From sequence record PQ613263: 64,000 nt of DNA, one strand, 5' to 3'. Below the pieces are notes generated by a model. That model did not search any database and was not told the DNA's origin. It saw only the letters and a list, made by a program, of their open reading frames with translations. This stretch comes from Shigella phage Moonfish. This document shows positions 9,466 through 50,597 of this stretch, piece by piece. The translations under genes were made by a program, and so were the position numbers. Numbering within the stretch: position 1 is the first letter of the stretch; each line of letters begins with the position of its first letter.

Positions 9466-12400
9466 TTGAACAGGAAACATGCTATGTCAACATTTGACCG
9501 TCTGGCAGGTTTCGCAGACAGCATCACTAATGCCAAGCAAGTCGATGTCTCTACTGCAACCTCTCAGAAGCAAGCTGCACAAGGGCAAAGCCCTTTCCAA
9601 TTAACCCCAGAGAATGCTTACAATCTCCAGACTGGACGTGTAGGTAATCTTGGAACTGGTGCATTCGAACCAGGTTCACTTCAGGCTGACTTCACTCAAG
9701 CCTCCCCATTAGAAATCATTAATAAGTACGGTAATGAGAAAGGTTTACAGATTCTTAATAGCCGAGCTAATGCTGCTGATGTTGTACGTCAGGACTTATC
9801 TAAACAGCGTACTAACGCAGAAGCATTTGGCGATACTCTTTCTGGTGTTGGTCTTGGTGTTGCTAATACCCTTGGGGGCATTGCTGCTCTTGGCACAGGT
9901 CTGGTCAATGATAATGCCGGGGCATCCATTGCTTCCGGGATGGATTGGCTGAATGAAGGTGTACGCAATCTCCAGTCTGATGCACTGAATGCTACCCGTA
10001 AAGTTGTTCAGAATCAGAACCAGATTTCTGCTCAAAAGAACCAGAAACTTTACGAGCAAGATATTAAGAATGGGGAGAACGATTTGGTTGCCTCCCTGTC
10101 TCGCATTGGTCGTGACGCTTTTGATTCTGTTGCTAATACACTTGATAATGGTATGGCTGCTACCGATGGACTGAGCGAAGGTGTTGGTTCCCTCTTTACT
10201 GCTGGTCCACTTATCCGTGGTGTGTCTGCATTAGGTAAAGTAATGGTTGGTGGTGATAAAGCTGTTAGGGGTATTACCTTAGCTGCTGAGTTGGGTTCAC
10301 GTCCTGCACAGGTTGCACTGTCTGCTGGTCGCGTTGCTGCACCTGCTATTGCAATCGGTGGCATGGAAGCAGGTGGTGCATACCAACAGACTGCATCTGA
10401 AATCATGAAGATGTCCCACCAAGAATTGGCAAGTAAGTCTCCTGTTTACCAACAACATATTGCTGATGGTTTACCTCCTGATGAAGCACGTCGTCAGACT
10501 GCATCTGAAACAGGTATCACTGCTGCTGGCTTAACTGCTCCAGTTGCTGCTGCTACTGGTCCACTGGTATCTCGCTTTGAACTTAACCCACTTAGAGTAG
10601 GTTCACTGGCTGGTGCTGGTTCTAATATGTTACGTGAGACTGTAGAAGAAGGTATTCAATCCGGCTTTGGTCAGTTCGCACAGAATACTGCAATCAAGGA
10701 AAATGTTGATGCATCCCGTGACACCCTCAAAGGGGTCGGTGAGCAAGCAGGGCTTGGTGCACTCTACGGCTTCGGTAGTGCTGGAGTTGCTCAAGCTCCT
10801 GGTGCAACTGTTAAAGCTGCTGGTGCTGCCACTGCTCCTGTTGTACGTACTACCCTGGCTGGTGCTTCTCTGGTTGGTAATGCATTAGCTAAAGCTGCTT
10901 CCCCTATTACTAACATTCTGGTTCAACGTGGTGAAGAAGTTGCTAAGCGTAATGAACAAGCATCCCCTGTAGCTGATGCTACGGTTAATGCTGCTGCACA
11001 AGAAGCTACTGCTCAGGCAGAACAAGCACAAGCGACTGTACAGGAAGCAGTAGATGCAATGGATATCTCTCCTGAGGAGAAGGCTGCTGCTACTCAGTAT
11101 GCTGCTGACTTAACTCAGGCAATGAACTTTGACCCTGTAGAATTGGAACAAGCTAACCCGGTAATTCGTGAAGCTGTTTCTGGTTCCACTAACCGTGTTG
11201 AAGCTATTCAGAAGATGGCTGACTTGGTTAATACAGCAGAAGACCCTAACGTTCAAATGGAAGCTGCTATCCAGATGTATGACAACATCATGTCTATGGA
11301 TAGCTTCATTAACCGTGACCCAGGTGCACTGGCTAATCTGGAACAGGGTTCACCTGCTGCTACAATCGTAGACCAGTTCTCTGGTCTGATGGCTAACGTA
11401 CAGAATACACCGAAGGTACTTCGTGCATTCCGTGCTATCCATTCCATGATTCAGGAACAGGCTGAAGCAGGTAAGCTGAAAGCTACTGAAGAAGCTAACC
11501 AAGCTCAAGCAAACAACATTGCCATGGCTGCTGACGTGTCTCCAGAAGTATTGGATGCAGATTCAGTGAACATGGTTCTGAAACATGCAAGTGAAGGTAA
11601 GATTACACTGGGGAATCGTCAACGTGCTGCCCTGCAATCTGCTGCTGCCTTGTTACAGGGTGCACGAGAGTTTGACGCTAAAGCAGAAGAACTAGGCTTA
11701 CGTCCTCAAGACATTGTTAGTAAACAAATTAAAACCGACGAGTCTCGTTCTAACGAAGGACAGTACTCTGCGTTGCAACATGCGAAACGCATTCGTTCTG
11801 CGTATAACTCTGGTAACTTCGATTTGGCTTACGCTTATCTGAGCGACTTTATGAAGTTCGCCCAGCACATGCAGAATAAGGTCGGAGCGTTGAATGAGCA
11901 TCTGATTTCTGGGAATGCGGATAAGAATAAGTCTGTTCATTATCAGGCTCTCTCGCCTTCCCGTGAATGGGTACGTAGTCGTACTGGCCTCGGTGTCAAT
12001 CCTTACGATACCAAGTCTGTTAAGTTTGCCCAGCAAGTAGGACTGGAGGCCAAAACCGTAGCTGATATTGCTAACGCACTTGCTACGGCTTACCCGGAGC
12101 TTAATGTTTCTCATGTGAAAGTTACCTCGTTGGATTCACGTCTGAACAAGCCAGCTGCCCAGGTAGTTAAAGAGTTCCGTCAAGGTGGTCTTGATGCCAC
12201 TCAGTCTCAACAGACCAATGAACCAGTGAATCAGGTTGATGAATCTCCTGCACCAGTGCAAGAGGACACTACTACTGTACAGCCTAAAGCTAAACCTGTG
12301 GTAGAAAATAAGACTGCTCCTACTAAGGAGACTAGCCCAAAAACAGAAGAAGTCTCTACTACCAAGTCTGAAACAGTAGAAGCTACCCTCACTAATGAGG

Positions 12401-15400
12401 ATACCATCCAGGAAGTAGCTGAAACCAAAACAGAAATGGAAACAGTGTTCCCCGTCTATAACAATGAAAAGACACCGAACCAGTTCCTGAAAGCATTTAC
12501 CCTACCAGAAGAACCTAAGTCTCGTACCATTGGTTCTGAGTCTCCGTTGACTGATGTTAAGCAAGCACTGTCTTCTGTTGCTCGCTTTGAAGCATTCACT
12601 CAAAAAGAAAATAACGCTCTCACAGGTGATGTGATTAAGCGTTATCAGGACTTAATGGACTTTGGTGAAACTCTGAAGACTACTTTGTCTGAACGACTGG
12701 CTAAGTTCCTTGCTAACAAAAATGTCGGTAAACGTTTTGCAGAAGGTACGGAAGCTAACCGTTGGGTAGGTGGCAAACTACTGAATATCGTTGAACAAGA
12801 TGGTGACACCTTTAAGTTCAATGACCAGTTGTTAGAGACTGCTGTGCTTGCTGGTCTGCAATGGCGACTAACTGCTACACAGAATGCTGCTGTTAAAGAC
12901 ATGAAAGACGTAGCTGCTATTACGGGTGTAGAAGCATCTCTGTTACCAGAAGGTATTCTGGCTGAGTTCGAGAATGCTCAGACTCTGGTTGAAGCTACTA
13001 ACTCACTGGCTCAGAAGATCGAATCCTACTGGGGTTTGAACCGTAACCCTAATGCACCACTGGGTTATACCAAGGGTATCCCAATGGCAATGGCTACAGA
13101 GATTCTGTCTTCCCTCATTGAGATGGGTGAAGTTAAAGAGTCTATGCTGGATGTGTCTGAGATTGACCCAGATTCCAATAAGACTGTCGGCCTGTATACC
13201 ATTGAGAAGCTGGATGACAATGATGCCATTAACAAATTCCCTACTGCTATTGAGGAAGCTGTCCTCTTAGAACCAGAAGAGAAAATGTATTTCGGTGACG
13301 ACATTCCTTCCGTGGCTCAAACTCAATTACGTAATCCTGCTGTTAAGAATACCCCGGAACAGAAAGCTGCTCTGAAAGTAGAACAGGCTACTGAGTTCCG
13401 TGTACACATGCCGATGGTTAACTTCTATGAAGCTATGGGCCGTGACAACATACTGGAATTGATGGGTGCTGGTTCTCTTAATCCTGAACTGTTGAACGTG
13501 AACACTGCTAAGTCACTGGAGGGTAAAAACCTGTCCGTGTCCATGGCATATGATTCCTTGTTTGGTGTAATCAATCAGATTAAGGAACAGGAGAATGGAC
13601 TAGATACACCTATCCACTATGGCTACAACATGACCCGTGTAGGTCGTATGCAGATGCTTGGTAAGAACAACCCACAGTCCAGCAAACTGGTACGTGAAGC
13701 AATCCTGCCAACCTTCTCTACTATTGACTTGAGTAATGAAAACAGCCAAACGTTCTCTGACTTCCAGTTAGGTCTGGCTCAGGCATTGGGTATCAAGGTT
13801 CATAATATGTCCCGTGAAGCTATGTCTGAAAAGCTGACCAAAGCTTTGGAAGGTAATCTGAAACCTGCTGTTGATATGATGGTTGAGTTTGATAAGTCTG
13901 GTCACTTACCTGCTGATGCAGTTGATATTCTGAAGACATCTCTGGGTGGCGATAAATCATTCGTAGCTCTCATGGCTCTTATGGAATATGCCCGTTACCT
14001 GAACAGTGATGACCGTGCCAACTTTAATACCCCTCTGTACGTTGAAGCCGATGGTGTAACCAACGGTCCGATTAACGCAATGGTATTAATGACTGGTGGT
14101 AAGTTCACTCCAGACTGGATTAAGAATACTGCTAAAGGTGGTTTGTTCTTCGGTAAAGCTGGTAAGACTATGAACGAACATCGTTCACAGGATGACAGTG
14201 TTGACTTGTATGAAGCATCCACCAATGGTCTGCAACAAGCATTGGGTGAATTGCGTAGTACTTACCGTAACAACGTTCCTGTTATGAGCCAGATGAACCA
14301 TCTCCAGAAGTTAATGGACCTGTTCATCAAAGACTTTAACTTGAATGAAGACGGTACTTTGGACCTGAAACGTGGTATCGCTAAAAACCCACTGACTATT
14401 ACCATCTATGGTTCTGGTGCACGTGGTATTGCTGGCAAGATGGTTAGTGCAATTACTGACACCATCTATGAACGCTTCAGTGACGTTCTGCAAGCACGTG
14501 CTGCTGACCCTAGCATTTCCCCAGCTATGGCGATGTTTGGTAAGGAGGCTGCGTCTGAGGCTGATGCTCAGGCTATGCTGGATACTTTCCTTACTTCTAT
14601 GGAAGCACTGACTGGTAATGTTCCAGTTATGCGTAAAGGCGAACTGTCTATTCAACAGGCAGAAGGTGCTCTGACTGGTAAGTTAGACCCTCAGAAGTTT
14701 ACTGTATCTGGTAATGCCTTGAAGAACCTACAAGAGAACATGCTTCACTTGTTCGTTGAACCAATGCGTACAGGTATCCGTAATACTGTTGGTGAAGGTC
14801 TGATGCACTCTACTGAGAACTTGCAGAAGGCTACTCAGATTCAGTCTCTGGTATTGCAGGATATGTTCCAACAAGCAGTACAGGCTAAACTGGCAGAAAA
14901 AGAAAATGACCCAACGTGGAAGAAGGGTGATTTCTTAACACAGAAAGAACTGAATGAAATTCAGGAATCATTATCTCCACTGGCTCCAATGATTGAGACT
15001 GGCGCACAGACTTTCTACATTGCTGGCAGTGAGAATACTGATGTTGCTAACCAAGTACTGGCTACCAACTTAGATGACCGTATGCGTGTGCCAATGAGCA
15101 TCTATGCCCCGTCACAAGCAGGTGTTGCTGGTATTCCATTTATGACCATCGGTACTGGTGATGGCATGATGATGCAGACCCTTTCTACTATGAAAGGTGC
15201 TCCGAAGAATACCCTGAAAATCTTTGATGGCATGAACATTGGTATCAATGACATCACTGATGCAAGCCGTAAAGCTAATGAGGCTGTATACACTTCCTGG
15301 CAGGGTAACCCTATCAAGAATGTTTATGACTCCTTCGCTAAGTTCATGAAGAATGTAGACTTCAGTAAACTGTCTGATGAAACCAAACAGGCTATCGCTA

Positions 15401-18400
15401 AGTCTGCTCTGGAATACGACCAGCGTGAAGGTGCTACTGATGACCTGTTACGTGTTGGTGCTGAACAGATTGAACGTAATCTGCGTAACATTGCTCTGGG
15501 TGTAGATATTCGCCATAAAGTAATGAACCAGGTACAGACTACTGTTGACCAGATGGCTGCTGTAGGTGCTCCTTATGTGAACAACGGTAAAATTTCTCTG
15601 GAAGGTCTGACTGTAGACCAGCAAGTAGCTAAGCTGAACGAACTGTTTGATGCTGAATTAATCAAGCGTCGTGATGCAGTACGTGCTGCTAAAGCAGAAC
15701 CAGTGAAAGAAGTACCGGCGATGGAGCAGGTTGGTCGTGTGCTGAAGTCTGGTGTACGTCTGCTGTCTAACACTGCTATTACTAAGCTGGCTAAAGAGAT
15801 GTCTCCTGAACAGCAAGCAGTATTGAAAGAAGTACAGAACTCCCTTGCTGCTAAAGACTACAAGGTTGTTTATGGTACTCCTGCTCAACTGGATGCTTAC
15901 GCTATTGAGAAGAACATTACTCGCCCAGCACCGGAAGATATTGAAGCTGCTGAAGCTGGTAATGCATACGGCTGGACTAACTTTGATGATAAGACCATCT
16001 ACTTAGTTACTCCTTCCTTAGAGACTCTGGTTCATGAATTGGTACATGCTTCTACTTTCGAATCTGTACTGGCTCACTATGAAGGTACTCCTAATGAAGC
16101 AGTCCAGAATATTGAAGACCTGATGAACCAGTTCCGTGCTCTGGATGTTAAGGATGAATCTCCGGCAGTACGTGAAGCATATGCTGATGCTCTCAATACC
16201 ATTAATGGTCACTTGTCTAATGGCTTTATTGAGCCAGCAATGGCTAAAGCTGCTGCACTTAATGAGTACATGGCATGGGGTTTAACCAACCGTGAACTGA
16301 TTGGTAAGCAGAAGAAAACCACTGCACTTAAGGCCATGGTTCAGTCTGTATATGAAGCAATTAAACGTCTGGTATTTGGGCGTAAGAAAGCTCCTGCTAA
16401 TGCAGATGATATGTTCTCTGGCTTACTGTTTAACTCCTCCGTAGTTATGCGTGGGCAAGCTCCTACTGCTGCTGTGGCTAAGGACACTACCTTGTTCCAT
16501 AGCAAAGCATATGGAGATAACACTCGTCTGGAAGAGTTAGGACAGACCTTCGATAAGCTGATTACTAACTACATTGGTTCAGAACCAGTACAGCAAGTAA
16601 TCCGTAAAGGTAAATTCTCTGATGCAGTAGTGAATGCAACAAAAGTAACTCGTGATGTTCAGGCTCATGGTTTCACTATGAATATGCAGGAACAGCGTCT
16701 CTTTACTAACATTGTTGCTGCACTGGCTACTGAAGCTGCTATTAGCCCAGCTGCTCTGGCTCGTGCACAGGAATACTATGCACACGTTACTAAGAACCTG
16801 ACCGTTGAAGCATTCATGGCTGACCCGGAAAGTACTAACCCTGCTGACCGTTACTACGCACAGCAGAAGTTCGATACCATCATGGGTGCTAACAATATTG
16901 AGTTTGATGCACAGGGTCGTTCTTCCTTACTGCCTACCTTCGTGGCTCTGGCAATGGTAAGTGAAGATGTACGTAACGTACTGGCTGGCATTCCTGTTAT
17001 GAAAGCAGATAAGCAATCTGGTAATACTGTTGATGCAATGCTGACTAACATTGGTACTGCTGCAATGGCTAGCCTGAATGCTCGTGTAGCAGGAGACACT
17101 AAAGCTACCAACGTGCAAGAAGGTATGGATGCACTGGCTCAGACAATCATGCAGACTAGCCTCAATGCACAGTCTTTCTACGATTCCGTTGCTACTCCTA
17201 GTGGTAATGCTATTGACCGTGCTAACCAGTATCTGGTGGACTCTATTGATGTACTGTCTACTCGTGCTTTAGATGGTGCACGTAATGTTGCAGCTAATAC
17301 CAAGAACCCATTGGTTAAAGGTGCTGCTCATGCTGCACAACTGGTAGCTGCTATTGCTACGGAGAAGAATGGTGCAATCGTAGCCGAAGGTGTTATGGCT
17401 GCAATGAACCAGGGTAAGGTATGGCAACCCTTCCATGACTTAGTTAATGACTTAACTGGTCGTACTAAGAGCAATGCTTCTGTATACGATTTAATTAAAG
17501 CAGTACGTGCACAGGTACAAGCTGACCGTCAGCAATTCCGTGAACATCTGCCTACCACTATCGCATCTAAGTTCAGCCGTAAGCTGACTAATGATGAGTG
17601 GAAAGCAATGCATACCGGCATGGGTAAAACTGATTTAGCTGTACTGCGTGACACTATGTCACTGGCTGAAATCCGTGACCTGTTGTCTGACCAGAAGATT
17701 GTTGACCGTGAAGTGAACAAGCTGGAAGCAGATTTGCAGAAACAAGCTGGGCGTAACTGGCCACTGATTAACCGTAAATCTAAGCAACTGGCTCAGTACA
17801 TGATTAACGGCACAGTTGGTAATAATCTGCTGCGTAATGCTACTGCAATCTCTCGTATGCTGGGCGAACGTCAGTCTGCACGTTCTACTGTAGATGTAGC
17901 TCAACTGGATAAACTTATTACCCTGTATGCACTGGAAGCAATGAGCAAAGCTGACCGTGAGCTGTTATCTTCCCTGGCTCAATCAGAAGTTGATGGAATG
18001 GATTTTGCTACTTCTTATCTGGTTGGACAGCGTAAAGATGAAATGGCTAAAGCTAAAACTGATAGCCGTGCAACATTGAACCAGTATAAAGGGCATATCC
18101 CTAGCGAGACTAAGCAGGGTGTTAACCTGATTGTTGCTGAAGATAGCCAGTTTGCTGATTTGATTGAGAAATCCTATGTACGTCTGGGTACTTATCAGGG
18201 TAGTTCTGCTAACCGTGGGCCAGCACGTAGCTACTACTTCGCACCAGTACAGGCACAGGCTCCATTCTCACAGGGCATCTTACAGAACGTTCGTAATACT
18301 GCTGGTGGTGTAGATCTTGGTACAGGCTTTACGATGGGTTCTATGGTAGCAGGTCGTATCACAGACAAGCCTTCAGTAGACCGTATCACTAAAGCTCTGG

Positions 18401-19836
18401 CCCGTGGTGAACGCGGTAATGAACCACTGCTGCCTGTATACGATGACAAAGGTAATGTAGTTGCATATGAGCAGTCTATAGACCCTAACATGCTGAAGCA
18501 CATTGAGGGTGAGAACCATCTTGCACGTGCAATCGGTGTATGGCGTGGTCGTCAGGTGGAAGAAGCTAAGGCTCAGCGTTTTAATGACATGCTGATAGAG
18601 AACCTGCATAGCATGTATGAGAACGACATTAAGATGTCTGCCTCCAATAAGTCCCAGTACGTGAACCTTCTTGGTTCTAAACTGGACCCAGTAACTGCTG
18701 ATGCTCTTAAGCTGATGAACAGTGAGACACGTCAGAAAGCAGAAAGCCTGTTTGGTAATGGTGAACTGTGGGTACGTCGTGACATGCTTAATGATGCTCT
18801 TGGTTATCGTGCAGCTTCTGTAGGTGATGCCTGGTCTGGTAATTCTCGTTGGTCCCCAGAAACGCTGGATACCTTCAAGAAAGCTATGTTAGGTGTGTTC
18901 GGCAATCGTGCTTATAAGTACACAATGGGAGGTGAGAACCTGGTACAGAACTTAGTTAAAGAAGCTAAGACCCTGATTGTAATTAAGTCAGTAGTCGTAC
19001 CTGCTGTTAACTTCTTGGCTAACCTTTACCAGATGGTTGCTCGTGGTGTACCAGTTAAGAACATTGCTAAGAGCATTCCACAGAAAACTGCTGAGATTAA
19101 CCAGTACCTGAAATCTCGTCTGCGTCAGGTAGATGCAGAAGCAGAATTACGTGCAGCTACCAACCCGAACCAGATTCGTAAGCTTAAGGCTGAGATTCAA
19201 TCCATCTCTGATAGCCATAAGCGTATGAGTATCTGGCCTCTGCTGGAAGCTGGTGAGTTCTCTTCAATTGCAGATGCTGGTATTGGGCGTGATGACATCC
19301 TGATTACCGAAGGTAAACTTCAGGAATATATGGATAAACTGGCTGATAAGTTGCCTAAGTCTGTACGTACTGCTGGGCGGTATGCACTCATCACTAAGGA
19401 TACTGCTCTTTTCCAGGGTATCCAGAAAACCGTTGAGTACTCTGACTTTATCGCTAAAGCAATCATCTATGATGAATTGACTCAGCGTAAAGGCAAGACT
19501 CGTGAAGAAGCACTTGGACGTGTAACTGAAGAGTTTGTTAACTATGACCGTCTGCCTGGTCGCTTCCGTGGATATATGGAAAGCGTTGGTTTAATGTGGT
19601 TCTACAACTTTAAGATTCGTTCTGCAAAAGTTGCAGTATCCATGATTCGTAATAACCCAGTACATGCAGCAATGGCTATGTTGGCTCCAGCTCCTACCAT
19701 GTTTGGTAACGTTGGTCTGCCTATTCAGGACAACGTATTTAGTATTGCTGCTAAGGGTGGGCTGGATTCTTCTTGGGGCTTTGGTCAGGGGCTGCGTGCT
19801 CACAACCTGAACCCTTGGTTGAACCTGGTAAACTAA
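9466..19836 (+). CDS. virion-encapsidated giant RNA polymerase (vRNAP, N4 gp50-like)
   Basis: Single uninterrupted 3456-aa ORF (10.4 kb) at the end of the virion gene module; a protein of this size in this position is the hallmark of N4-like phages. All antisense ORFs inside it are short. Confidence 0.9.
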   Translation: MNRKHAMSTFDRLAGFADSITNAKQVDVSTATSQKQAAQGQSPFQLTPENAYNLQTGRVGNLGTGAFEPGSLQADFTQASPLEIINKYGNEKGLQILNSRANAADVVRQDLSKQRTNAEAFGDTLSGVGLGVANTLGGIAALGTGLVNDNAGASIASGMDWLNEGVRNLQSDALNATRKVVQNQNQISAQKNQKLYEQDIKNGENDLVASLSRIGRDAFDSVANTLDNGMAATDGLSEGVGSLFTAGPLIRGVSALGKVMVGGDKAVRGITLAAELGSRPAQVALSAGRVAAPAIAIGGMEAGGAYQQTASEIMKMSHQELASKSPVYQQHIADGLPPDEARRQTASETGITAAGLTAPVAAATGPLVSRFELNPLRVGSLAGAGSNMLRETVEEGIQSGFGQFAQNTAIKENVDASRDTLKGVGEQAGLGALYGFGSAGVAQAPGATVKAAGAATAPVVRTTLAGASLVGNALAKAASPITNILVQRGEEVAKRNEQASPVADATVNAAAQEATAQAEQAQATVQEAVDAMDISPEEKAAATQYAADLTQAMNFDPVELEQANPVIREAVSGSTNRVEAIQKMADLVNTAEDPNVQMEAAIQMYDNIMSMDSFINRDPGALANLEQGSPAATIVDQFSGLMANVQNTPKVLRAFRAIHSMIQEQAEAGKLKATEEANQAQANNIAMAADVSPEVLDADSVNMVLKHASEGKITLGNRQRAALQSAAALLQGAREFDAKAEELGLRPQDIVSKQIKTDESRSNEGQYSALQHAKRIRSAYNSGNFDLAYAYLSDFMKFAQHMQNKVGALNEHLISGNADKNKSVHYQALSPSREWVRSRTGLGVNPYDTKSVKFAQQVGLEAKTVADIANALATAYPELNVSHVKVTSLDSRLNKPAAQVVKEFRQGGLDATQSQQTNEPVNQVDESPAPVQEDTTTVQPKAKPVVENKTAPTKETSPKTEEVSTTKSETVEATLTNEDTIQEVAETKTEMETVFPVYNNEKTPNQFLKAFTLPEEPKSRTIGSESPLTDVKQALSSVARFEAFTQKENNALTGDVIKRYQDLMDFGETLKTTLSERLAKFLANKNVGKRFAEGTEANRWVGGKLLNIVEQDGDTFKFNDQLLETAVLAGLQWRLTATQNAAVKDMKDVAAITGVEASLLPEGILAEFENAQTLVEATNSLAQKIESYWGLNRNPNAPLGYTKGIPMAMATEILSSLIEMGEVKESMLDVSEIDPDSNKTVGLYTIEKLDDNDAINKFPTAIEEAVLLEPEEKMYFGDDIPSVAQTQLRNPAVKNTPEQKAALKVEQATEFRVHMPMVNFYEAMGRDNILELMGAGSLNPELLNVNTAKSLEGKNLSVSMAYDSLFGVINQIKEQENGLDTPIHYGYNMTRVGRMQMLGKNNPQSSKLVREAILPTFSTIDLSNENSQTFSDFQLGLAQALGIKVHNMSREAMSEKLTKALEGNLKPAVDMMVEFDKSGHLPADAVDILKTSLGGDKSFVALMALMEYARYLNSDDRANFNTPLYVEADGVTNGPINAMVLMTGGKFTPDWIKNTAKGGLFFGKAGKTMNEHRSQDDSVDLYEASTNGLQQALGELRSTYRNNVPVMSQMNHLQKLMDLFIKDFNLNEDGTLDLKRGIAKNPLTITIYGSGARGIAGKMVSAITDTIYERFSDVLQARAADPSISPAMAMFGKEAASEADAQAMLDTFLTSMEALTGNVPVMRKGELSIQQAEGALTGKLDPQKFTVSGNALKNLQENMLHLFVEPMRTGIRNTVGEGLMHSTENLQKATQIQSLVLQDMFQQAVQAKLAEKENDPTWKKGDFLTQKELNEIQESLSPLAPMIETGAQTFYIAGSENTDVANQVLATNLDDRMRVPMSIYAPSQAGVAGIPFMTIGTGDGMMMQTLSTMKGAPKNTLKIFDGMNIGINDITDASRKANEAVYTSWQGNPIKNVYDSFAKFMKNVDFSKLSDETKQAIAKSALEYDQREGATDDLLRVGAEQIERNLRNIALGVDIRHKVMNQVQTTVDQMAAVGAPYVNNGKISLEGLTVDQQVAKLNELFDAELIKRRDAVRAAKAEPVKEVPAMEQVGRVLKSGVRLLSNTAITKLAKEMSPEQQAVLKEVQNSLAAKDYKVVYGTPAQLDAYAIEKNITRPAPEDIEAAEAGNAYGWTNFDDKTIYLVTPSLETLVHELVHASTFESVLAHYEGTPNEAVQNIEDLMNQFRALDVKDESPAVREAYADALNTINGHLSNGFIEPAMAKAAALNEYMAWGLTNRELIGKQKKTTALKAMVQSVYEAIKRLVFGRKKAPANADDMFSGLLFNSSVVMRGQAPTAAVAKDTTLFHSKAYGDNTRLEELGQTFDKLITNYIGSEPVQQVIRKGKFSDAVVNATKVTRDVQAHGFTMNMQEQRLFTNIVAALATEAAISPAALARAQEYYAHVTKNLTVEAFMADPESTNPADRYYAQQKFDTIMGANNIEFDAQGRSSLLPTFVALAMVSEDVRNVLAGIPVMKADKQSGNTVDAMLTNIGTAAMASLNARVAGDTKATNVQEGMDALAQTIMQTSLNAQSFYDSVATPSGNAIDRANQYLVDSIDVLSTRALDGARNVAANTKNPLVKGAAHAAQLVAAIATEKNGAIVAEGVMAAMNQGKVWQPFHDLVNDLTGRTKSNASVYDLIKAVRAQVQADRQQFREHLPTTIASKFSRKLTNDEWKAMHTGMGKTDLAVLRDTMSLAEIRDLLSDQKIVDREVNKLEADLQKQAGRNWPLINRKSKQLAQYMINGTVGNNLLRNATAISRMLGERQSARSTVDVAQLDKLITLYALEAMSKADRELLSSLAQSEVDGMDFATSYLVGQRKDEMAKAKTDSRATLNQYKGHIPSETKQGVNLIVAEDSQFADLIEKSYVRLGTYQGSSANRGPARSYYFAPVQAQAPFSQGILQNVRNTAGGVDLGTGFTMGSMVAGRITDKPSVDRITKALARGERGNEPLLPVYDDKGNVVAYEQSIDPNMLKHIEGENHLARAIGVWRGRQVEEAKAQRFNDMLIENLHSMYENDIKMSASNKSQYVNLLGSKLDPVTADALKLMNSETRQKAESLFGNGELWVRRDMLNDALGYRAASVGDAWSGNSRWSPETLDTFKKAMLGVFGNRAYKYTMGGENLVQNLVKEAKTLIVIKSVVVPAVNFLANLYQMVARGVPVKNIAKSIPQKTAEINQYLKSRLRQVDAEAELRAATNPNQIRKLKAEIQSISDSHKRMSIWPLLEAGEFSSIADAGIGRDDILITEGKLQEYMDKLADKLPKSVRTAGRYALITKDTALFQGIQKTVEYSDFIAKAIIYDELTQRKGKTREEALGRVTEEFVNYDRLPGRFRGYMESVGLMWFYNFKIRSAKVAVSMIRNNPVHAAMAMLAPAPTMFGNVGLPIQDNVFSIAAKGGLDSSWGFGQGLRAHNLNPWLNLVN

Positions 19837-21310: not shown

Positions 21311-21467
21311 AGAGTGGTTTGAGTTTGTACTTAAACATGACTGCGTTGTTATAGGCTACGCTACCTGCAAACACCAAGGAATTACGTCCACGGTTATCCG
21401 TTACCTCATAGGCATACGGGGTTAAGATTAGGTCAATCATCTTGAATGTCCAACTAGTAATATTCAA
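21282..21467 (-). CDS. hypothetical small protein
   Basis: 61-aa ORF downstream of a hairpin. Confidence 0.35.
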   Translation of the reverse strand: MNITSWTFKMIDLILTPYAYEVTDNRGRNSLVFAGSVAYNNAVMFKYKLKPLYEANNGNSK

Positions 21468-21474
21468 ATAAAAA

Positions 21475-21494
21475 AGTCCATCCGAAGAGGGACT
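21475..21494 (-). terminator. putative terminator downstream of tRNA-like region
   Basis: AGTCC...GGACT hairpin with A/T runs on both sides. Confidence 0.4.
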
Positions 21495-21654
21495 TAGTAG
21501 CTTTTAATAGATAGCTGTATTTGAGCATTATAGTCTGCTCATACTCACACTCTTCTGTCGAAGAATATGTTTACAATACCTAGAGTGCCGGACTGTCTTA
21601 CCGGCATTGTCTTTAGAGTGCTAAGCAATCAGGACTATGTTCTCTATTAATGGG

Positions 21655-21728
21655 TGCCCACTACTGGATTTGAACCAGTGACTTTCCGATTATTAGTCGG
21701 TTGCTTTCCCCGTCTAAGCTAAGCGGGC
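21655..21728 (-). tRNA. tRNA gene (manual fold); anticodon loop CUAAUAA, anticodon AAU if numbering is canonical (Ile-type; A34 is unusual)
   Basis: Folded by hand on minus strand: acceptor GCCCGCT/AGTGGGC (one G.U), D-stem GCTT/AAGC with GG in D-loop, anticodon stem CCGA/UCGG, perfect T-arm ACTGG-TTCAAAT-CCAGT, discriminator A. Confidence 0.6.
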
Positions 21729-21929
21729 ATTGATAGGTGAGTCCTGCCAGGCTTTAACTGGCTCCTTCTTCGCAATCCTTACATACCCCTACATAATTAT
21801 TGCGTTAAGCTTTTTTGTTTAAGTTTAAGTGAAGGCGTTCTTGCTGACTCATAATTAGGTGAGGCGTTTGACGAATGACTAGTTCGTTACTACCTCGTTG
21901 TTTGCCATAAGTACCTGGCGACTTCAGGT

Positions 21930-22260
21930 AACGGGGGATGGAATCGAACCACCAGTACTAAGTCTTATTCGTGCACCAAGCACGCTAGTGGATTACTCCA
22001 CCGGAGGGAATCGAACCCCATCTACTTCACCAGACCCGTCTTAATTCTTACAATTAGTGAGAACACTTACCCTGGTTTAGGAGTTGAACCTAATTGGGGA
22101 GTAGTTTACGAACATTTTTCACTCCTTTCCCGGTAGCCAAGATAAGAGTTCTCACGAATTGGTTCCGGCGTCTGGACTCGAACCAACGAGAGAAGTAGCG
22201 ACCAACTGCACATGCCTACGTGCTACCCCGACCATTATAATAGGAGGGAGGGGACGAGTC
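21930..22260 (-). other. cluster of four additional tRNA T-arm-like motifs (GGTTCGAnTCC) at ~70-95 nt spacing; canonical cloverleaves not confirmed by hand
   Basis: Minus-strand T-arm-like stems/loops centred near 21945, 22012, 22085, 22179; one is followed by ...CGCCGGA-A-CCA; I could not pair acceptor stems or find 7-nt anticodon loops. Confidence 0.3.
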
Positions 22261-22632
22261 CTCCCTTCATACCCTATGTTACATGTAAGACCTAACATCT
22301 CGATGCTGGATGAATAGCTTAATAAACTATCCGACATTATTGGTTAATGTTGTGCTCAACACGAGCGTTAGTTGATAAGGGATCTGAAGCCTTATCCCAA
22401 AGAAACCAACCTTTGGGATATAGCCTAAGATTCAGAAATGGCCCCCATAGGAGAGGCCATTGATTAACCCGAATGTTGCTTTACATTTTCTGAGATAACC
22501 CATTCTTAAAATAGTCTGTCTGACGGATGGGGAGCTACCCCTAGCGTCAGTGCCATACGGCAAAGATTAAGTTAAGAAAGGTTATGATAGGAGTTCCTAT
22601 CTCAAAGGATTCTGACAGAACCCTTCACGATA

Positions 22633-22803
22633 TTAACTACTCTTTTTCAGTGCTTCTACTTCACCATCTTTATACCAAGCGTATGGTACTAAGACTTTGC
22701 AGCCTTCTGAATCAATGTGGAATGCTTTGTTTCCTTCAACAGGTTCTCCACCCACGAAAGAACTAACCTTTCCATTGAGCCAGTGAATAGTAAATTTGTT
22801 CAT
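22633..22803 (-). CDS. hypothetical small protein (56 aa, below track cutoff)
   Basis: ATG with weak GAGG RBS; ORF MNKFTIHWLNGKVSSFVGGEPVEGNKAFHIDSEGCKVLVPYAWYKDGEVEALKKSS read from the sequence. Confidence 0.3.
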   Translation of the reverse strand: MNKFTIHWLNGKVSSFVGGEPVEGNKAFHIDSEGCKVLVPYAWYKDGEVEALKKSS

Positions 22804-47861: not shown

Positions 47862-48988
47862 CTGCCAGAGGCTGTCATCCAGCTTACCCGCAGAGAACTC
47901 TTGTCCCAGTACCTGAGATAGGATGAAGCCCAGCAAGTCACTCTTAGCAATGTCAGATAGAATCTGATTGTACTGACGACGTAGGTCATTACCATAGTTA
48001 GGATGACAACGAAAACCATTAGTTAAACGAGTCGTTAGCTCGCCCTTACCTTCCATGATTAACATGAAAGCCATATGTAGCATCTGCTTGTTTACGAGCA
48101 AGCATTGCCTCCTCAAGTGTGTCGTACGTACCCAGACCGATCTGTTTGCGATTGACTGTGATGTGTGCCTGAAATCTACCAGAAGGCAGTATTCTCACAC
48201 CGTTCACTTTGCTTGAAGTATTACTAGATAAACTCATATTCATCTGGTTCTGTCTGCTGGTTACATTTCTCAAATTAGACCAACGATTGTCGTTTCTAGT
48301 ATGATTGATGTGGTCCACCTGGTTAGGTGTTTCCCCAGTTTCCATTATCCAGATTATTCGATGTAGTAAGTACTCTTTGCGGCCCAGGCTAACGGATAGA
48401 TACCCTTCTTTGTGAGGATACCCCACAATTGTTCCGGCTAACCCACTGGCAGAGTCATAACGATGAGTCACTAGCCCACTATCCCTGTCATACCTTAAAA
48501 CCTTCTGCAAAGATTCTTGGGTAATATTACCCAAGTTTATTATTAGGTTTTTACAGGTAGAGCATAGATGACCTATTGGACTCTTTCTAGCATCATAGAA
48601 GTTACAAACAAACTCATTAGAGCATTGCTTGCAACTACAGATAGCTGTGTACTTACCAGTTTTACGTAATATTTGAGAGTTATCTAACATATGGATTCCT
48701 TAGTAATTTTGCATACAATTTCAGATTGTATCCTAACCAAGGAAGTAAGTCTCCAATTTTCACTGGAGTATCGGACTATATCATCACCCACTAATCAGTG
48801 GGGCAAGGCGCTTGGGTGGTCACTTGACTCACCTACTCTACTCACATACGAAATGCTTTCGATAGTCTCTGAACCTTCCCTCATAGAGGGCTTGGCTGCT
48901 GATTGGCATATCCATAGGACTTAGCTTTCCAGCAATTCACCTTGTTTTCGACACGGATTACTCCGTGAAGGATCATTTATGTTTAATC
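47862..48988 (-). mobile_element. probable group I intron (~1.1 kb) in RNAP II large-subunit gene, carrying an HNH-AP2 endonuclease ORF
   Basis: Upstream ORF stops right after ...VLTVHD, 9-10 codons short of a T7-like C-terminus that is encoded 1.1 kb downstream in frame-compatible position; splice after caU with intron ending caG satisfies U/G group I rules. Confidence 0.55.
48046..48690 (-). CDS. HNH endonuclease with AP2 DNA-binding domain (intron-encoded)
   Basis: 214 aa; own AAGGAA RBS; HNH_3-like GYLSVSL...HRIIWIMETGETPNQVDHINHTRNDNRWSNLR; C-terminal AP2-like GVRILPSGRFQAHI...GTYDTLEEA. Confidence 0.8.
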   Translation of the reverse strand: MLDNSQILRKTGKYTAICSCKQCSNEFVCNFYDARKSPIGHLCSTCKNLIINLGNITQESLQKVLRYDRDSGLVTHRYDSASGLAGTIVGYPHKEGYLSVSLGRKEYLLHRIIWIMETGETPNQVDHINHTRNDNRWSNLRNVTSRQNQMNMSLSSNTSSKVNGVRILPSGRFQAHITVNRKQIGLGTYDTLEEAMLARKQADATYGFHVNHGR

Positions 48989-50014
48989 ATGTACAGTCAA
49001 TACAGGGAATGGCTTCTTAGGTAAAGTGTCCAGCATGTCTGCTACTACCTGACGGTCAACCATAGCAATAGTGCCTGGGTCGAGATAGTCGATAATAGAC
49101 ATAGATAAGAATCCAGACTTCTCGTAGTGTTCCCACAAGGTCTGTACCATTTCCATGTTACCTTCAATCTCCCCATACTCTGCTGGGCCTGTGTCGCAGA
49201 GTTCACGAACAGCAGCAACCAGGTTAGCATCGAAGTTACAACGACGCAGCATCTCGCGTACCACCATCCCATCAATAGAGTGGGTGATGTTAGCAGAGAG
49301 CATACGAGTCTTCTCTTCAGTACCCTGAACCATGCGGGTAATGTCGAATGGTTTACCTAAGAAGTTAACAGTCTGTACTTCTGGAACCATGACCTTAATG
49401 ACGGCATGGAAGTTGTCAGACAATACCCATACGTAACGGTTAGCATCCGGGTTACCACATTGCAGTAAGAACTTGTTCAATGCCCAAGGCCCACTAGCAA
49501 CAGTTTCCATTACATTCTCAAAAGTCTTGAGACGGATACCCTCACCGAATACTTCTTTAGGCTTAGCTTCTGAACCGTAGAATGCAGTCATAACTGCCTG
49601 CTTAGTGTCACTACGCTTAATACGAGATGCTTCACCAAGGATGTCCAACATCTTGTGATAGATAACTGTATAAGCATCACGACGTAATGGCTTACCGTTT
49701 TCACCCATGTAGTTAACTACGTTACACAGTTCAGCAGCAGAACGGTCACCAGTCAGGCAAGCCAGTAACTGCAAGCCTGATGATGTAGCATCCAGAGCTA
49801 CGGCATAGCCAATAGGCTTACCGGCTTTCATATCTTTCCATGCGTTTACACCTGCATAGAACAATGCGGATTCTTCAGCTTCATCTACCAGATTAAGCAG
49901 GTTAGCTTCGTTTTCATCGAACCAGCTAATACGTTCATCCCATGTTTTCTTATCCAGACCCATGTTATTCGCAATATCAATCTTTAAATATTCTTTCGCT
50001 GTGAAAAGCTGCAT
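48989..50014 (-). CDS. phage RNAP II large subunit (N4 gp16-like, T7-like catalytic half), 5' exon
   Basis: LDATSSGLQLLA (T7 motif A FDGSCSGIQHFSA), KQAVMTAFYGS (motif B), ITHSIDG (T7 H784 region), RELCDTG (motif C). Confidence 0.8.
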
Positions 50015-50015
50015 C

Positions 50016-50597
50016 TTAAGCTCCTAGTTTCCACGTATAGCCATATGCTTGTGCATATGTACCAATAATTGATTGTTTAATGTTTGATGGTATTCCATTT
50101 ACACTGCGTGCTGCTGCACTCAGTGAATGGAATGTCTGGATGTAAATACCATCCAGTGTGTATTGCTCTACAGGGATAGCAGATTTGGTATTAATACCGT
50201 TGATTGCATCAGAGTAATACCTTCTTACATTGGCGTTTACCGTAACAACACGAATGTTATCCAGTGAGTAACCTTTATAGTCATCCAGCCTGTCAAGGCT
50301 TGGCTTCAGGTTGGTTGGGTAATCCTCTATTACCCATTTATCATACAGAGTGTGAAACTCTTTCTTTGATAACACCCATTGTTCTAGTTCCTCTTTAGTA
50401 AAAGTAACAGGATTAAACCCTTTCTTCTTGGTTCTGCTTACGCAACCGGAGTACATTTGATTAATGACTCCTTGTTTGGAATGGATAAAACGTTTCACAC
50501 AGTCTTTACAGTCTGCTCTTACACCCTGTTTACCTGTGGACTGTTTATTGAACATGTCCAGAGGCAAGTTCTGCTTACATACTGAACATGTCTTCAT
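50016..50597 (-). CDS. homing-endonuclease-like protein (Cys4 zinc ribbon + C-terminal NUMOD1-like DNA-binding motif), free-standing between RNAP II subunit genes
   Basis: 193 aa; CSVCK...CKDC; C-terminal FHSLSAAARSVNGIPSNIKQSI...GYTWK resembles DNA-binding tails of GIY-YIG/HNH homing endonucleases; no catalytic motif identified. Confidence 0.45.
   Translation of the reverse strand: MKTCSVCKQNLPLDMFNKQSTGKQGVRADCKDCVKRFIHSKQGVINQMYSGCVSRTKKKGFNPVTFTKEELEQWVLSKKEFHTLYDKWVIEDYPTNLKPSLDRLDDYKGYSLDNIRVVTVNANVRRYYSDAINGINTKSAIPVEQYTLDGIYIQTFHSLSAAARSVNGIPSNIKQSIIGTYAQAYGYTWKLGA

What the first reader, a model, noticed from the sequence alone, without database searches (positions are those of the whole stretch)
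21930..22260. Tightly spaced tRNA T-arm-like motifs that do not fold into canonical tRNAs by hand
Four minus-strand GG-TTCGAnTCC-like stem-loops occur at ~70-95 nt intervals downstream of one well-folding tRNA. For none could I pair an acceptor stem or find a 7-nt anticodon loop at canonical distances. They may be divergent tRNAs, tRNA pseudogenes or 3' halves, or tRNA-mimicking RNA elements.
Basis: seen in the sequence. Interest (0 to 1): 0.6.

Follow-up and report, generated by a model that had tools for sequence, protein, structure and literature searches.

The report
Phage tRNA-mimic RNAs, one broken
The four tRNA-like hairpins are real and belong to three modules in an N4-like phage's tRNA/small-RNA operon. 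Two modules are conserved tRNA-mimicking RNAs of unknown role and one is a dead hybrid left by a deletion; none is a true tRNA.

Summary
GGTTCRANTCC occurs five times in the 64-kb window (0.26 expected by chance). All five lie on the minus strand within 21666-22184, and only the last one is a canonical tRNA, tRNA-Ile(AAT). The window is a Gamaleyavirus (G7C/N4-like phage), and the motifs sit in a ~1.2-kb non-coding stretch that ends at a terminator.

The four motifs form three modules:
- **E1 (22233-22160)** is a deletion hybrid. It joins the 5' two-thirds of a cloverleaf 'tRNA-Ala(CGC)-like' element to the 3' end (T-arm half, acceptor strand, CCA) of a 66-nt mini tRNA-like RNA. About 500 nt present in relatives are missing, so the acceptor halves cannot pair.
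- **E2 (22155-22057)** is a 19-bp helix capped by a three-way junction that carries a T-arm.
- **E34 (22041-21927)** is a single ~113-nt RNA holding motifs 3 and 4. It has a tRNA-like acceptor stem and T-arm, plus a second T-arm and two hairpins.

E2 and E34 are conserved, with many compensatory base changes, in N4-like and T4-like phages, always inside tRNA clusters. Neither matches an Rfam family.

The best reading is that they are tRNA-mimic small RNAs excised by host tRNA-processing enzymes, analogous to T4 RNAC/RNAD. Their function is not known.

The segment deleted from this phage carries, in relatives, an unannotated tmRNA-like tag template (ANDDVVLMAA).

The parts
22160..22233 (-). E1: a chimeric, non-folding tRNA-like remnant of 74 nt (GGTCGGGG...GGTTCGAGTCCAGACGCCGGAACCA). 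It carries T-arm motif 1.
   Evidence: Bases 22233-22187 are 93-96% identical to the 'tRNA-Ala(CGC)-like' cloverleaf of ECBP1, St11Ph5 and pSb-1. Bases 22185-22157 are 100% identical to the 3' end of the mini tRNA-like 'M' of N4, ECBP1 and St11Ph5, which in those phages lies ~500 nt further downstream. The chimera folds no better than shuffled sequence (z = +0.36). The intact parents give z = -3.2 for the Ala-like element and -2.2 for M. No phage record holds the hybrid as one contiguous piece.
22178..22186 (-). Crossover interval of the deletion, inside the shared T-arm sequence TGGTTCGA.
   Evidence: In alignment A3, the last Ala-like-specific columns end at 22187 and the first M-specific base is G22177.
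22057..22155 (-). E2: a 99-nt structured RNA. A 19-bp closing helix (GTGAGAAC-T-CTTATCTTGG / CCAGGGTAAG-T-GTTCTCAC) caps a three-way junction. The junction holds a conserved hairpin (GGAGTG...TACTCC) and a T-arm at 22093-22077 (TTAGG TTCAACT CCTAA), which is motif 2.
   Evidence: MFE z-score is -4.0, with 0 of 200 shuffles folding as well. RNAalifold on 10 sequences from G7C, N4, Pylasvirus, FSL SP-058 and the T4-like Yersinia phages TG1 and phiR1-RT gives 34 pairs, 14 of them with compensatory double changes. The covariance model R1 scores the homologues at 101-133 bits.
21927..22041 (-). E34: a single ~113-nt 'double T-arm' tRNA-like RNA that contains motifs 3 and 4. Its parts are: acceptor-like stem 22041-22035 / 21935-21929; T-arm 1 at 22019-22005; hairpin 2 at 22002-21987; hairpin 3 at 21984-21970, with an invariant UUGG in the loop; T-arm 2 at 21953-21937; and one unpaired C (21936) between T-stem 2 and the acceptor stem.
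   Evidence: Alignment A1 has 13 sequences from Gamaleyavirus, Kaypoctavirus and the T4-like Dhakavirus, Karamvirus and PEi20. It supports 26 pairs, 14 with compensatory changes. 98.5% of cells are paired, and 0 of 500 shuffles reach the observed covariation. Register-shift controls fall to 39-58% paired. Covariance model R2 scores homologues at 109-131 bits and finds one copy in the window, at 21926-22044.
21651..21729 (-). Context: the only canonical tRNA in the window, tRNA-Ile with anticodon AAT, downstream in the same transcription direction.
   Evidence: ARAGORN; Rfam RF00005 at 63.8 bits.
21470..21496 (-). Context: a terminator-like hairpin with a U-run (AAGUCCCUCUUCGGAUGGACUUUUUU) that closes the non-coding RNA cluster.
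   Evidence: The sequence is visible in the alignment. The equivalent site in G7C is annotated as a rho-independent terminator.

Best explanation
The locus is the tRNA/small-stable-RNA operon of an N4-like (Gamaleyavirus) phage. It is transcribed on the minus strand and ends at the terminator near 21470. It is built from interchangeable cassettes that each imitate the acceptor-stem/T-arm part of a tRNA.

Two cassettes in this window are intact, selected RNA genes. E2 is a long helix capped by a T-arm-bearing three-way junction. E34 is a tRNA-like RNA with a normal acceptor stem and T-arm plus an extra T-arm and two hairpins.

Inferred mechanism: because these RNAs present the acceptor/T-arm 'top half' that RNase P and the 3'-trimming and CCA enzymes recognise, they are cut out of the polycistronic transcript like tRNAs. 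For E2, cleavage may instead occur in its ~20-bp helix by RNase III. The products would accumulate as stable small RNAs of about 100-115 nt, as T4 RNAC/RNAD do. Their two canonical T-loops and invariant GG dinucleotides suggest folded tRNA 'elbows'. The mature RNAs would then act as tRNA mimics that bind, titrate or distract a tRNA-recognising host factor rather than decode codons.

The first cassette, E1, is not functional. It is the scar of a ~500-nt deletion, produced by recombination between two similar T-arms. That deletion removed the 3' third of the Ala-like gene, a tmRNA-like tag module and the 5' two-thirds of the mini tRNA-like RNA M.

Shown: the anatomy, conservation, covariation, chimerism, and placement in tRNA arrays. 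Inferred: processing, stability and the decoy role.
For: - **Clustering and non-tRNA status.** The motifs cluster far beyond chance and none is a tRNA.
- **Context.** The window is a G7C-like phage. The same non-coding region exists in 150+ phage records and ends in an annotated terminator.
- **E34.** It has 26 pairs, 14 compensatory, and passes both controls. In T4-like phages it occupies a 'tRNA slot': between tRNA-Met and tRNA-Arg in VR5, and 3 nt after the CCA of the preceding tRNA in L020 and L024.
- **E2.** It has 34 pairs, 14 compensatory. In N4 it lies between M and tRNA-Pro. In the T4-like Yersinia phages it lies between tRNA-Met and tRNA-Arg.
- **M.** tRNAscan-SE calls it 'tRNA-Undet' in an N4-like record. 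It folds as acceptor stem + short arm + T-arm + free CCA.
- **Generic tRNA likeness.** The E34 model gives weak generic scores of 15-23 bits to real tRNAs, to M and to T4 rnaC alike, so they share an acceptor/T-arm frame.
- **E1 chimerism.**
- **Precedent.** T4 RNAC/RNAD are small stable RNAs from the T4 tRNA region. They are annotated, expressed late, confirmed by Northern blot, and of unknown role (PMC3014915; PMC9697503). That T4 species 1/2 precursors are RNase P substrates is my own background knowledge and was not checked here.
Against: - There are no expression, processing or stability data for any of these RNAs in an N4-like phage.
- E2 has no free acceptor end. Its 'acceptor' is a closed 19-bp helix, so tRNA-type 3' maturation cannot apply to it as such.
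- E34 has an unpaired C between the T-stem and the acceptor stem, a 6-7-bp acceptor, and encodes no CCA (it has ACC or others). This may impair recognition by RNase P or the CCA enzyme.
- The cassettes are gained and lost freely between close relatives. G7C lacks E1 entirely, most Gamaleyaviruses lack E2, and ECBP1 lacks E34. Each one is therefore dispensable for growth in the laboratory.
- Homology to T4 rnaC could not be shown: 11 bits, E about 0.08.
- The decoy function is pure inference.
Confidence: 0.62

Rival explanations
1. All four motifs are evolutionary debris: decaying tRNA pseudogenes from a once larger phage tRNA array, with no present function.
For: E1 is exactly such debris. The region is a mosaic with frequent deletions and insertions, including an HNH endonuclease gene in G7C. 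Relatives carry other pseudo-tRNAs, annotated as tRNA-OTHER, tRNA-Pseudo or tRNA-Cys(ACA).
Against: E2 and E34 keep every helix through compensatory double substitutions, across phages as distant as N4-like podoviruses and T4-like myoviruses. In E34, 98.5% of cells are paired and 14 of 26 pairs covary; in E2, 14 of 34 pairs covary. Their loops hold long invariant stretches. Neutral decay would not preserve either feature.
Confidence: 0.12
2. They are cis-acting processing or punctuation signals. In this reading the tRNA-like folds exist only to recruit RNase P, RNase III or RNase E to cut the long transcript. This would release tRNA-Ile or set mRNA ends, and the excised pieces themselves have no role.
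For: The elements lie between genes, tRNAs and a terminator in one transcription unit. E2 is closed by a helix of RNase III-substrate length. In Pylas and FSL SP-058 the E2 helix directly abuts the 5' end of the next RNA module.
Against: Punctuation needs only an acceptor/T-arm minihelix or a plain stem. It does not explain the invariant internal loops: AGUGAAAAAUGUU...AAACUACU in E2, and GUAGAU, the UUGG loop and GACUUA in E34. It also does not explain E34's second T-arm. Several such elements in a row, with nothing between them to separate, would be redundant.
Confidence: 0.15
3. They are the tRNA-like partners of a phage-encoded trans-translation (tmRNA-like) system, orphaned in this phage by loss of the tag-coding module.
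For: In relatives, the ~500 nt missing from the window contain a tmRNA-like tag template. It scores 33 bits against Rfam tmRNA_permuted and 15-21 bits against beta_tmRNA, and it encodes ANDDVVLMAA followed by TAA. In Pylas, FSL SP-058 and KpCHEMY26 the E2 homologue sits directly 5' of that template. M ends in an encoded CCA. A TLD-only mini-tmRNA is known from mycobacteriophage DS6A (PMC4131195).
Against: - ARAGORN calls no tmRNA in any of these phages.
- E2 has no free 3' end to aminoacylate, and its order of elements fits neither the standard nor the permuted tmRNA tRNA-like domain (inspection).
- None of the acceptor stems has a conserved G3:U70.
- The modules do not co-occur strictly. N4 has M and E2 but yielded no tag match. 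The tag-bearing stretches fetched from P1 and phage C1 gave no E2 or E34 model hit. ECBP1 caps the same helix with a different, T-arm-less domain.
Confidence: 0.08
4. They are ordinary tRNAs, perhaps with introns or odd arms, that the search programs missed; or they are attP-type 3' tRNA fragments used for integration.
For: Each has a perfect T-loop consensus. ARAGORN calls the intact Ala-like parent of E1 a tRNA in relatives.
Against: ARAGORN and the Rfam tRNA model fail even at E = 10. The comparative structures of E2 and E34 have no anticodon arm with a 7-nt loop. N4-like phages (Schitoviridae) are strictly lytic and encode no integrase; this is background knowledge, and the window was not scanned for an integrase. 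The one '3' fragment', in E1, is explained by an internal deletion.
Confidence: 0.03

Closest known systems
Bacteriophage T4 small stable RNAs, species 1 (RNAC/rnaC) and species 2 (RNAD/rnaD)
   Same: Both are non-tRNA small RNAs encoded inside a phage tRNA gene cluster and co-transcribed with tRNAs. rnaC ends in a canonical T-arm (CCGGG TTCGAAT CCCGG) plus an acceptor-like 3' strand. Function is still unknown. The E34 model gives rnaC a generic tRNA-frame score of 19 bits.
   Different: No demonstrable sequence or structure homology: the E2 model scores rnaC at 11 bits, E about 0.08. E34 has two T-arms. E2 is closed by a 19-bp helix instead of a free acceptor end. The host phage family differs (N4-like podovirus).
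Canonical tRNA (Rfam RF00005)
   Same: They share the T-arm with a GGTTCRANTCC loop consensus. E34 and M also have an acceptor stem stacked next to the T-arm. They lie in tRNA arrays with tRNA-like spacing.
   Different: There is no D-arm/anticodon-arm cloverleaf and no 7-nt anticodon loop. There is an extra nucleotide or mismatch at the 7:66 junction. Lengths are 99-115 nt. No tRNA model reaches threshold.
tmRNA tRNA-like domain, including the TLD-only mini-tmRNA of mycobacteriophage DS6A
   Same: These are acceptor/T-arm mimics without an anticodon arm. In relatives they are physically adjacent to a tmRNA-like tag template. The E2 T-loop hits the tmRNA T-loop in Rfam, though only as a fragment.
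   Different: There is no conserved G3:U70. E2 has no free CCA end. No tag template exists in this window. ARAGORN and Rfam tmRNA models do not call any of them.
'tRNA-Undet' calls by tRNAscan-SE in N4-like phages (for example vB_Eco_SPSP tRNA4)
   Same: The 66-nt element so annotated is the M element. Its last 29 nt are 100% identical to window 22185-22157.
   Different: The window holds only the 3' third of M, fused to a different gene. The annotation gives no structure or function and does not cover E2 or E34.
YrlA (bacterial Y RNA-like tRNA mimic, RF02553)
   Same: The concept matches E2: a long terminal helix capped by a tRNA-like domain with a T-arm.
   Different: The relaxed Rfam scan gives no YrlA match in the window locus. 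No Rsr/Ro gene context is known for these phages. In my reading the order of elements around the junction differs, but this was not formally tested.

Membership tests
tRNA (RF00005 / ARAGORN cloverleaf) | Scores above the Rfam gathering threshold (29 bits), or an ARAGORN call with acceptor, D, anticodon and T arms | tested here: not met
   Only 21651-21729 is called. Nothing is called at 21927-22233, even at E up to 10.
tRNA (RF00005 / ARAGORN cloverleaf) | Canonical T-arm: 5-bp stem and a 7-nt loop TTCRANY | tested here: met
   Four such arms lie at 22184-22174, 22093-22077, 22019-22005 and 21953-21937. Their stems covary in homologues. T-arm 1 of E34 has only 4 conserved pairs.
tRNA (RF00005 / ARAGORN cloverleaf) | Anticodon arm with a 7-nt loop at the canonical distance | tested here: not met
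   The consensus structures of E2 and E34 contain no such arm. Loops are 4-5 nt in E34 hairpins 2 and 3, and 18 nt in E2.
tmRNA (RF00023, RF04321, RF01850) | Tag reading frame with a resume codon, followed by a stop codon | tested here: not met
   No match to AAATGCAAACGATGATG within 3 mismatches anywhere in the window. The frame is present in relatives.
tmRNA (RF00023, RF04321, RF01850) | tRNA-like domain with a free CCA end and G3:U70 | tested here: not met
   E1 ends in CCA but its acceptor strands do not pair. E2 has a closed helix. The E34 3:70 pair is C-G, U-A, G-U or A-U depending on the phage. ARAGORN calls no tmRNA.
T4 species 1 RNA (rnaC) | Sequence and structure homology to T4 rnaC | tested here: inconclusive
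   The E2 model scores 11.3 bits, E 0.08, on rnaC. The E34 model scores 19.1 bits, no better than on real tRNAs.
T4 species 1 RNA (rnaC) | Non-tRNA gene embedded in a phage tRNA cluster and ending in a T-arm plus acceptor-like strand | tested here: met
   Synteny in N4, VR5, TG1, phiR1-RT, L020 and L024; structure.
T4 species 1 RNA (rnaC) | Accumulates as a stable small RNA processed by RNase P | not testable with these tools
   No transcript data are available for N4-like phages (one search found none).
Chimeric tRNA-like pseudogene (E1 only) | The two halves trace to two different intact genes that are separated in relatives | tested here: met
   Alignment A3 and BLAST: the left half matches the Ala-like element and the right half matches M. 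The two are 500-520 nt apart in ECBP1 and St11Ph5.
Chimeric tRNA-like pseudogene (E1 only) | Loss of the parental fold | tested here: met
   z = +0.36 for the chimera, against -3.22 and -2.24 for the parents. The MFE structure has no acceptor stem and no T-arm.
YrlA / Y RNA-like (RF02553) | Match to the covariance model | tested here: not met
   No YrlA hit at E up to 10 in 21400-22800.

The most novel reading that the evidence does not exclude
E34 and E2 (with M and the Ala-like element) may be members of an undescribed, horizontally exchanged toolkit of phage tRNA-elbow mimics. E34 would be a 'double-elbow' RNA whose two T-loops dock onto its two invariant GG motifs. These RNAs would act in trans during infection in one of two ways. 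They could be decoys or inhibitors for host tRNA-directed enzymes or tRNA-cleaving immune nucleases. Alternatively, they could be the tRNA-like partners of a phage-encoded, TLD-less tmRNA-type tag template, which is present in the relatives and deleted in this phage. The second option would imply a split, phage-controlled trans-translation system.
Probability: 0.2. Interest if true: 0.85.

Novelty: new variant of a known kind. Interest (0 to 1): 0.6.

Why it matters
Small stable non-tRNA RNAs in phage tRNA clusters have been known since T4 species 1 and 2 in the 1970s, and they still have no assigned function. This locus shows that such tRNA mimics are not a T4 oddity. At least two well-defined, covarying families (E2 and E34) circulate between N4-like podoviruses and T4-like myoviruses of enterobacteria. 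They always sit in tRNA slots, and they are invisible to tRNA finders, to Rfam and, in the records inspected here, to genome annotation.

They provide concrete, small, deletable targets for asking what phage tRNA mimics do, at a time when tRNA-targeting bacterial immunity and phage tRNA counter-measures are under active study.

For annotation, the result shows that 'odd T-arm' signals in phage genomes can be either genuine structured RNA genes or recombination scars, and that comparison with relatives tells them apart.

The neighbouring tmRNA-like tag template in relatives was also found in 657 of 5,426 complete E. coli genomes, mostly on plasmids that match phage P1 at this locus. If it is functional, it would be a new kind of phage interference with ribosome rescue.

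Tried and rejected
- **Relaxed Rfam scan of the locus.** It returned only T-loop fragments. The other hits (CRISPR-DR46, mir-9413, Ysr49, antisense Plastid-ycf2) are chance matches or the antisense strand of the tRNA.
- **Sigma-70 promoter and terminator scan.** Counts did not exceed the shuffled expectation, so it was uninformative.
- **Homology of E2 to T4 rnaC.** By eye the two share 'AAAAAUrUU...CGUmAACUACU...T-arm'. With filters off, the E2 covariance model gives rnaC only 11 bits, so I do not claim homology.
- **Fitting E2 to a tmRNA tRNA-like domain, standard or circularly permuted.** The order around the junction is helix 5' strand, linker, hairpin, T-arm, helix 3' strand. This fits neither form, and E2 has no free 3' end. 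Rejected by inspection.
- **Looking for a tRNA-like domain belonging to the tag module in relatives.** I looked for a 5' strand upstream and a T-arm plus CCA downstream. In Pylas the RNA ends at a terminator with no T-arm. In ECBP1 the downstream T-arm belongs to a local pseudo-tRNA. This remains unresolved.
- **Collection scans.** The E34 pattern had 0 hits in 185,579 bacterial and archaeal genomes. The E2 pattern had 0 hits in JGI metagenome contigs. IMG/VR scans gave only 6-8 loci each, mostly the same phage genera.
- **Literature searches.** Searches for tmRNA or tRNA-like RNAs in N4-like or G7C phages found only routine ARAGORN mentions. The tmRNA database papers list phage tmRNAs only for mycobacteriophages and Bacillus phage G (2014), or as an uncharacterised count of 79 (2025). 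The supplements held as text did not name them.
- **Protein-coding reading.** ORFs 22152..22337(-) and 21898..22044(+) overlap the elements. They are not conserved: G7C lacks E1, alignment gaps are of 2, 3 and 5 nt, and substitutions are stem-compensatory rather than codon-patterned.
Full report
**1. The observation**

The motif GGTTCRANTCC occurs five times in the 64-kb window. All five are on the minus strand: 21666-21676, 21940-21950, 22007-22017, 22080-22090 and 22174-22184. Chance expectation is 0.26, and no shuffle out of 100 reaches five.

ARAGORN finds one tRNA in the whole window, tRNA-Ile(AAT) at 21651-21729 on the minus strand. Rfam at gathering threshold agrees (63.8 bits) and otherwise reports only a group I intron. 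A relaxed Rfam scan of 21400-22800 (E up to 10) returns only bare T-loop fragments of the tmRNA model for the four upstream motifs.

In transcript orientation they lie upstream of the good tRNA.

**2. Context**

The window carries a 3,456-aa ORF at 9466-19836 followed by minus-strand genes. Its non-coding stretch matches more than 150 phage records. The best are Gamaleyavirus (G7C-like, N4-like Schitoviridae) at 90-95% identity.

In these phages the region lies after gp47/gp47.2 and ends at an annotated rho-independent terminator. Annotations under the match are inconsistent: tRNA-Ala, tRNA-Cys, tRNA-Thr, 'tRNA-OTHER', 'tRNA-Pseudo', or nothing.

BLAST against five relatives shows a mosaic of cassettes that are present or absent in different combinations.

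**3. Motif 1 is a deletion scar (E1, 22233-22160)**

The left part, 22233-22187, is 93-96% identical to an element that ARAGORN calls tRNA-Ala(CGC) in ECBP1 and St11Ph5. In St11Ph5 that element folds as a clean cloverleaf (z = -3.2).

The right part, 22185-22157 (GGTTCGAGTCCAGACGCCGGAACCAATT), is 100% identical to the 3' end of a different element, here called 'M'. In ECBP1, St11Ph5 and UE-M6, M lies about 500 nt further downstream, and it is also present in phage N4 itself. M is 66-67 nt long and folds as acceptor stem, short arm, T-arm and free CCA (z = -2.2). tRNAscan-SE labels it 'tRNA-Undet' in the N4-like phage SPSP.

Alignment A3 places the crossover within the shared TGGTTCGA of the two T-arms, at 22186-22178. 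The hybrid has mismatched acceptor halves and folds no better than shuffled sequence (z = +0.36). No record among 50,697 phage genomes contains it contiguously. The closest, St11Ph5, matches in two pieces spanning 613 nt. G7C has lost the whole segment.

This fully explains why no acceptor stem could be paired by hand.

**4. Motif 2 belongs to E2 (22155-22057)**

E2 is a 19-bp helix closing a three-way junction. The junction holds a conserved hairpin and the T-arm TTAGG-TTCAACT-CCTAA at 22093-22077. The fold z-score is -4.0.

Homologues occur in several phages:
- G7C.
- Phage N4, where E2 lies between M and tRNA-Pro.
- The Schitoviridae Pylas, KpCHEMY26 and FSL SP-058.
- The T4-like Yersinia phages TG1 and phiR1-RT, where E2 lies between tRNA-Met and tRNA-Arg.

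RNAalifold on ten sequences gives 34 pairs, 14 of them with compensatory double changes, mostly in the long helix. The junction and loops are nearly invariant. A covariance model retrieves the homologues at 101-133 bits.

**5. Motifs 3 and 4 are two arms of one RNA, E34 (22041-21927)**

Thirteen homologues align over 122 columns. They come from Gamaleyavirus, Kaypoctavirus and the T4-like genera Dhakavirus and Karamvirus plus PEi20.

The consensus structure has:
- a 6-7-bp acceptor-like stem;
- T-arm 1;
- two short hairpins, the second with an invariant UUGG loop;
- a conserved single-stranded GACUUA;
- T-arm 2;
- one unpaired C before the acceptor 3' strand.

Of 26 pairs, 14 show compensatory double changes and 98.5% of cells are paired. 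None of 500 column shuffles reaches the observed covariation, and sliding the 3' partners by 1-3 columns drops pairing to 39-58%.

In T4-like phages E34 occupies a tRNA slot. In VR5 it lies between tRNA-Met and tRNA-Arg. In two others it starts 3 nt after the CCA of the preceding tRNA.

The E34 model finds exactly one copy in the window. It gives only generic 15-23-bit scores to real tRNAs, to M and to T4 rnaC. A specific E34 pattern has no match in 185,579 bacterial and archaeal genomes and matches 8 metagenome contigs, nearly all close relatives of this phage. E34 therefore appears to be confined to phages.

**6. Mechanism**

*Shown:* three modules; two under selection for structure; one dead; all co-oriented with the flanking genes, the tRNA and the terminator; homologues sitting in tRNA arrays.

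*Inferred:* E34 and M present the acceptor/T-arm half that RNase P and the 3' maturation enzymes use, so they are probably excised like tRNAs. E2, closed by a ~20-bp helix, is more likely released by a double-strand-specific cut (RNase III), or simply forms a stable domain.

The closest precedent is the pair of T4 small stable RNAs RNAC and RNAD. They are encoded next to tRNA-Arg in the T4 tRNA cluster, expressed late and confirmed by Northern blot, and still of unknown function. That their precursor is an RNase P substrate is textbook knowledge I recall and did not verify here.

The canonical T-loops and invariant GG motifs suggest tRNA-elbow mimicry. My preferred function is a trans-acting mimic that engages a tRNA-recognising factor. 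This step is speculative.

**7. Rivals**

- **Pure debris** fits E1 but not the covariation in E2 and E34.
- **Processing punctuation only** does not explain the invariant internal loops or the second T-arm.
- **Missed canonical tRNAs** are excluded and by the comparative structures.
- **A link to trans-translation** is suggested by the relatives but fails the defining tests for this window (see section 8).

**8. What the deletion removed**

In ECBP1, St11Ph5, UE-M6 and many other phages, the segment missing from the window carries a module that Rfam scores below threshold against tmRNA models: tmRNA_permuted at 33 bits and beta_tmRNA at 15-21 bits.

Its core is ...UUUAGAAAC.RACCA...AUAAAU GCA AAC GAU GAU GUU GUU CUG AUG GCN GCN UAA. 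That is a ten-codon tmRNA-type tag, ANDDVVLMAA. The variants are ANDDVILMAA, ANDDVVLMVA, ANDDLMMVAA (P1), ANDDQFLAVA and ANDNAFLMAA.

Several features point to a tmRNA-type resume frame rather than a conventional ORF:
- The last Ala uses three synonymous codons.
- No ATG, GTG or TTG lies in frame upstream.
- An in-frame stop lies 4-8 codons upstream.

The module occurs next to tRNA clusters in N4-like phages and upstream of tRNA genes in the P1 and ViI-like Serratia loci. It also occurs in siphophage C1, where ARAGORN found no tRNA in the fetched stretch. BLAST also matched other unrelated phages such as 9NA, 7-11 and HK633; their loci were not inspected. It is present in 657 of 5,426 complete E. 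coli genomes, mostly on plasmids that match phage P1 at this locus. It is never annotated in the rows listed, and it does not cross-hit chromosomal ssrA by blastn.

In Pylas and FSL SP-058 the E2 homologue sits directly 5' of the module, inside a conserved outer helix. In ECBP1 the same helix caps a different domain.

I could find no tRNA-like domain that would let this RNA be charged, and ARAGORN calls no tmRNA. How it works is unexplained. It is absent from the present window.

**9. Comparison and novelty**

The modules work like, but are not demonstrable members of, the T4 RNAC class. They are not tRNAs, tmRNAs or YrlA by the tests in the membership table. M alone has been noticed before, as 'tRNA-Undet'. 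E2 and E34 appear undescribed: no Rfam family, no annotation in the records inspected, and no paper found.

I rate the finding as a new variant of a known kind, namely phage tRNA-cluster-embedded tRNA mimics. Interest is about 0.6: solid structural evidence, unknown function, and a link to an unexplained tmRNA-like module in relatives.

Noticed in passing
Relatives only: L002 (ECBP1) 1566-1745; L003 (St11Ph5) ~1548-1640; L017 (P1) 1185-1400; L026 (Pylas) ~11000-11180; absent from the window: An unannotated tmRNA-like tag template encodes ANDDVVLMAA and variants. It has 10 codons, no start codon, an in-frame stop 4-8 codons upstream and synonymous Ala codons, and is followed by pseudoknot-like hairpins. 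No recognisable tRNA-like domain accompanies it. It is found in N4-like phages, P1, ViI-like Serratia phages and siphophages, and in 657 of 5,426 complete E. coli genomes. The window's E1 is the scar of its deletion.
   Followed up: partly
window 48751-48994 (-), with ORFs 48983-50014 (-) and 48046-48690 (-): A group I intron (Rfam 91 bits) starts right after an ORF ending ...PVLTVHD. This looks like the catalytic 'HD' motif region of a T7-like single-subunit RNA polymerase (the N4 RNAPII large subunit), but that is judged by eye only. An HNH-type homing-endonuclease-like ORF follows. A second endonuclease-like ORF lies at 50016-50597.
   Followed up: partly
window 21651-21729 (-): The only canonical tRNA has anticodon AAT (Ile). 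An unmodified or inosine A34 isoleucine tRNA is unusual for bacteria and their phages. It is conserved in many Gamaleyaviruses.
   Followed up: no
window 22265-22234 (-): A conserved hairpin GGGAGG-ACTCGTCC-CCTCCC is followed by CCTATTATAAT immediately upstream of E1. In relatives the same hairpin and motif precede either the Ala-like element or the tag-module helix directly. It may be a promoter or a processing site for the RNA cluster.
   Followed up: no
L016 (N4) ~1806-1898 and L002 (ECBP1) ~2220-2330; not in the window: A further conserved non-coding element has a covarying closing helix (GTGGGATG/CATCCCAC in N4, TTTGGGGTG/CGCCTCAAA in ECBP1). N4 also has two long plain hairpins (~1280-1365 and ~1705-1790). 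The N4-like RNA cluster therefore holds still more structured modules.
   Followed up: no
L004 (G7C) 795-1292 versus window ~22838/22828: G7C carries an HNH homing-endonuclease gene (gp47.1) inserted in this region, and the window lacks it. The region is a hot spot for mobile-element insertion and cassette exchange, which may drive the mosaicism.
   Followed up: no
L044, L031-L033 (Kaypoctavirus) versus L016, L002: E34 and M occupy the same slot directly after a conserved hairpin, GGAGCCAGGTGGAATCCCTGGCAA. They share the internal 'CUAG + GC-rich hairpin + UAAG' arrangement. This suggests that E34 and M are paralogous, alternative cassettes.
   Followed up: partly
L002 1747-1825, L001 1646-1725: A pseudo-tRNA has a canonical D-arm and T-arm but a disrupted anticodon stem. 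It is variously annotated as tRNA-Cys(ACA), tRNA-Thr or 'tRNA-Pseudo-ACA', and it follows the tag module in ECBP1 and UE-M6.
   Followed up: no
window 21730-21925 (-): The ~195-nt spacer between E34 and tRNA-Ile is conserved at about 85-90% in relatives. It shares a motif (ATAGGGGTATGT.AGG) with the N4 cluster and may hold another RNA element.
   Followed up: no
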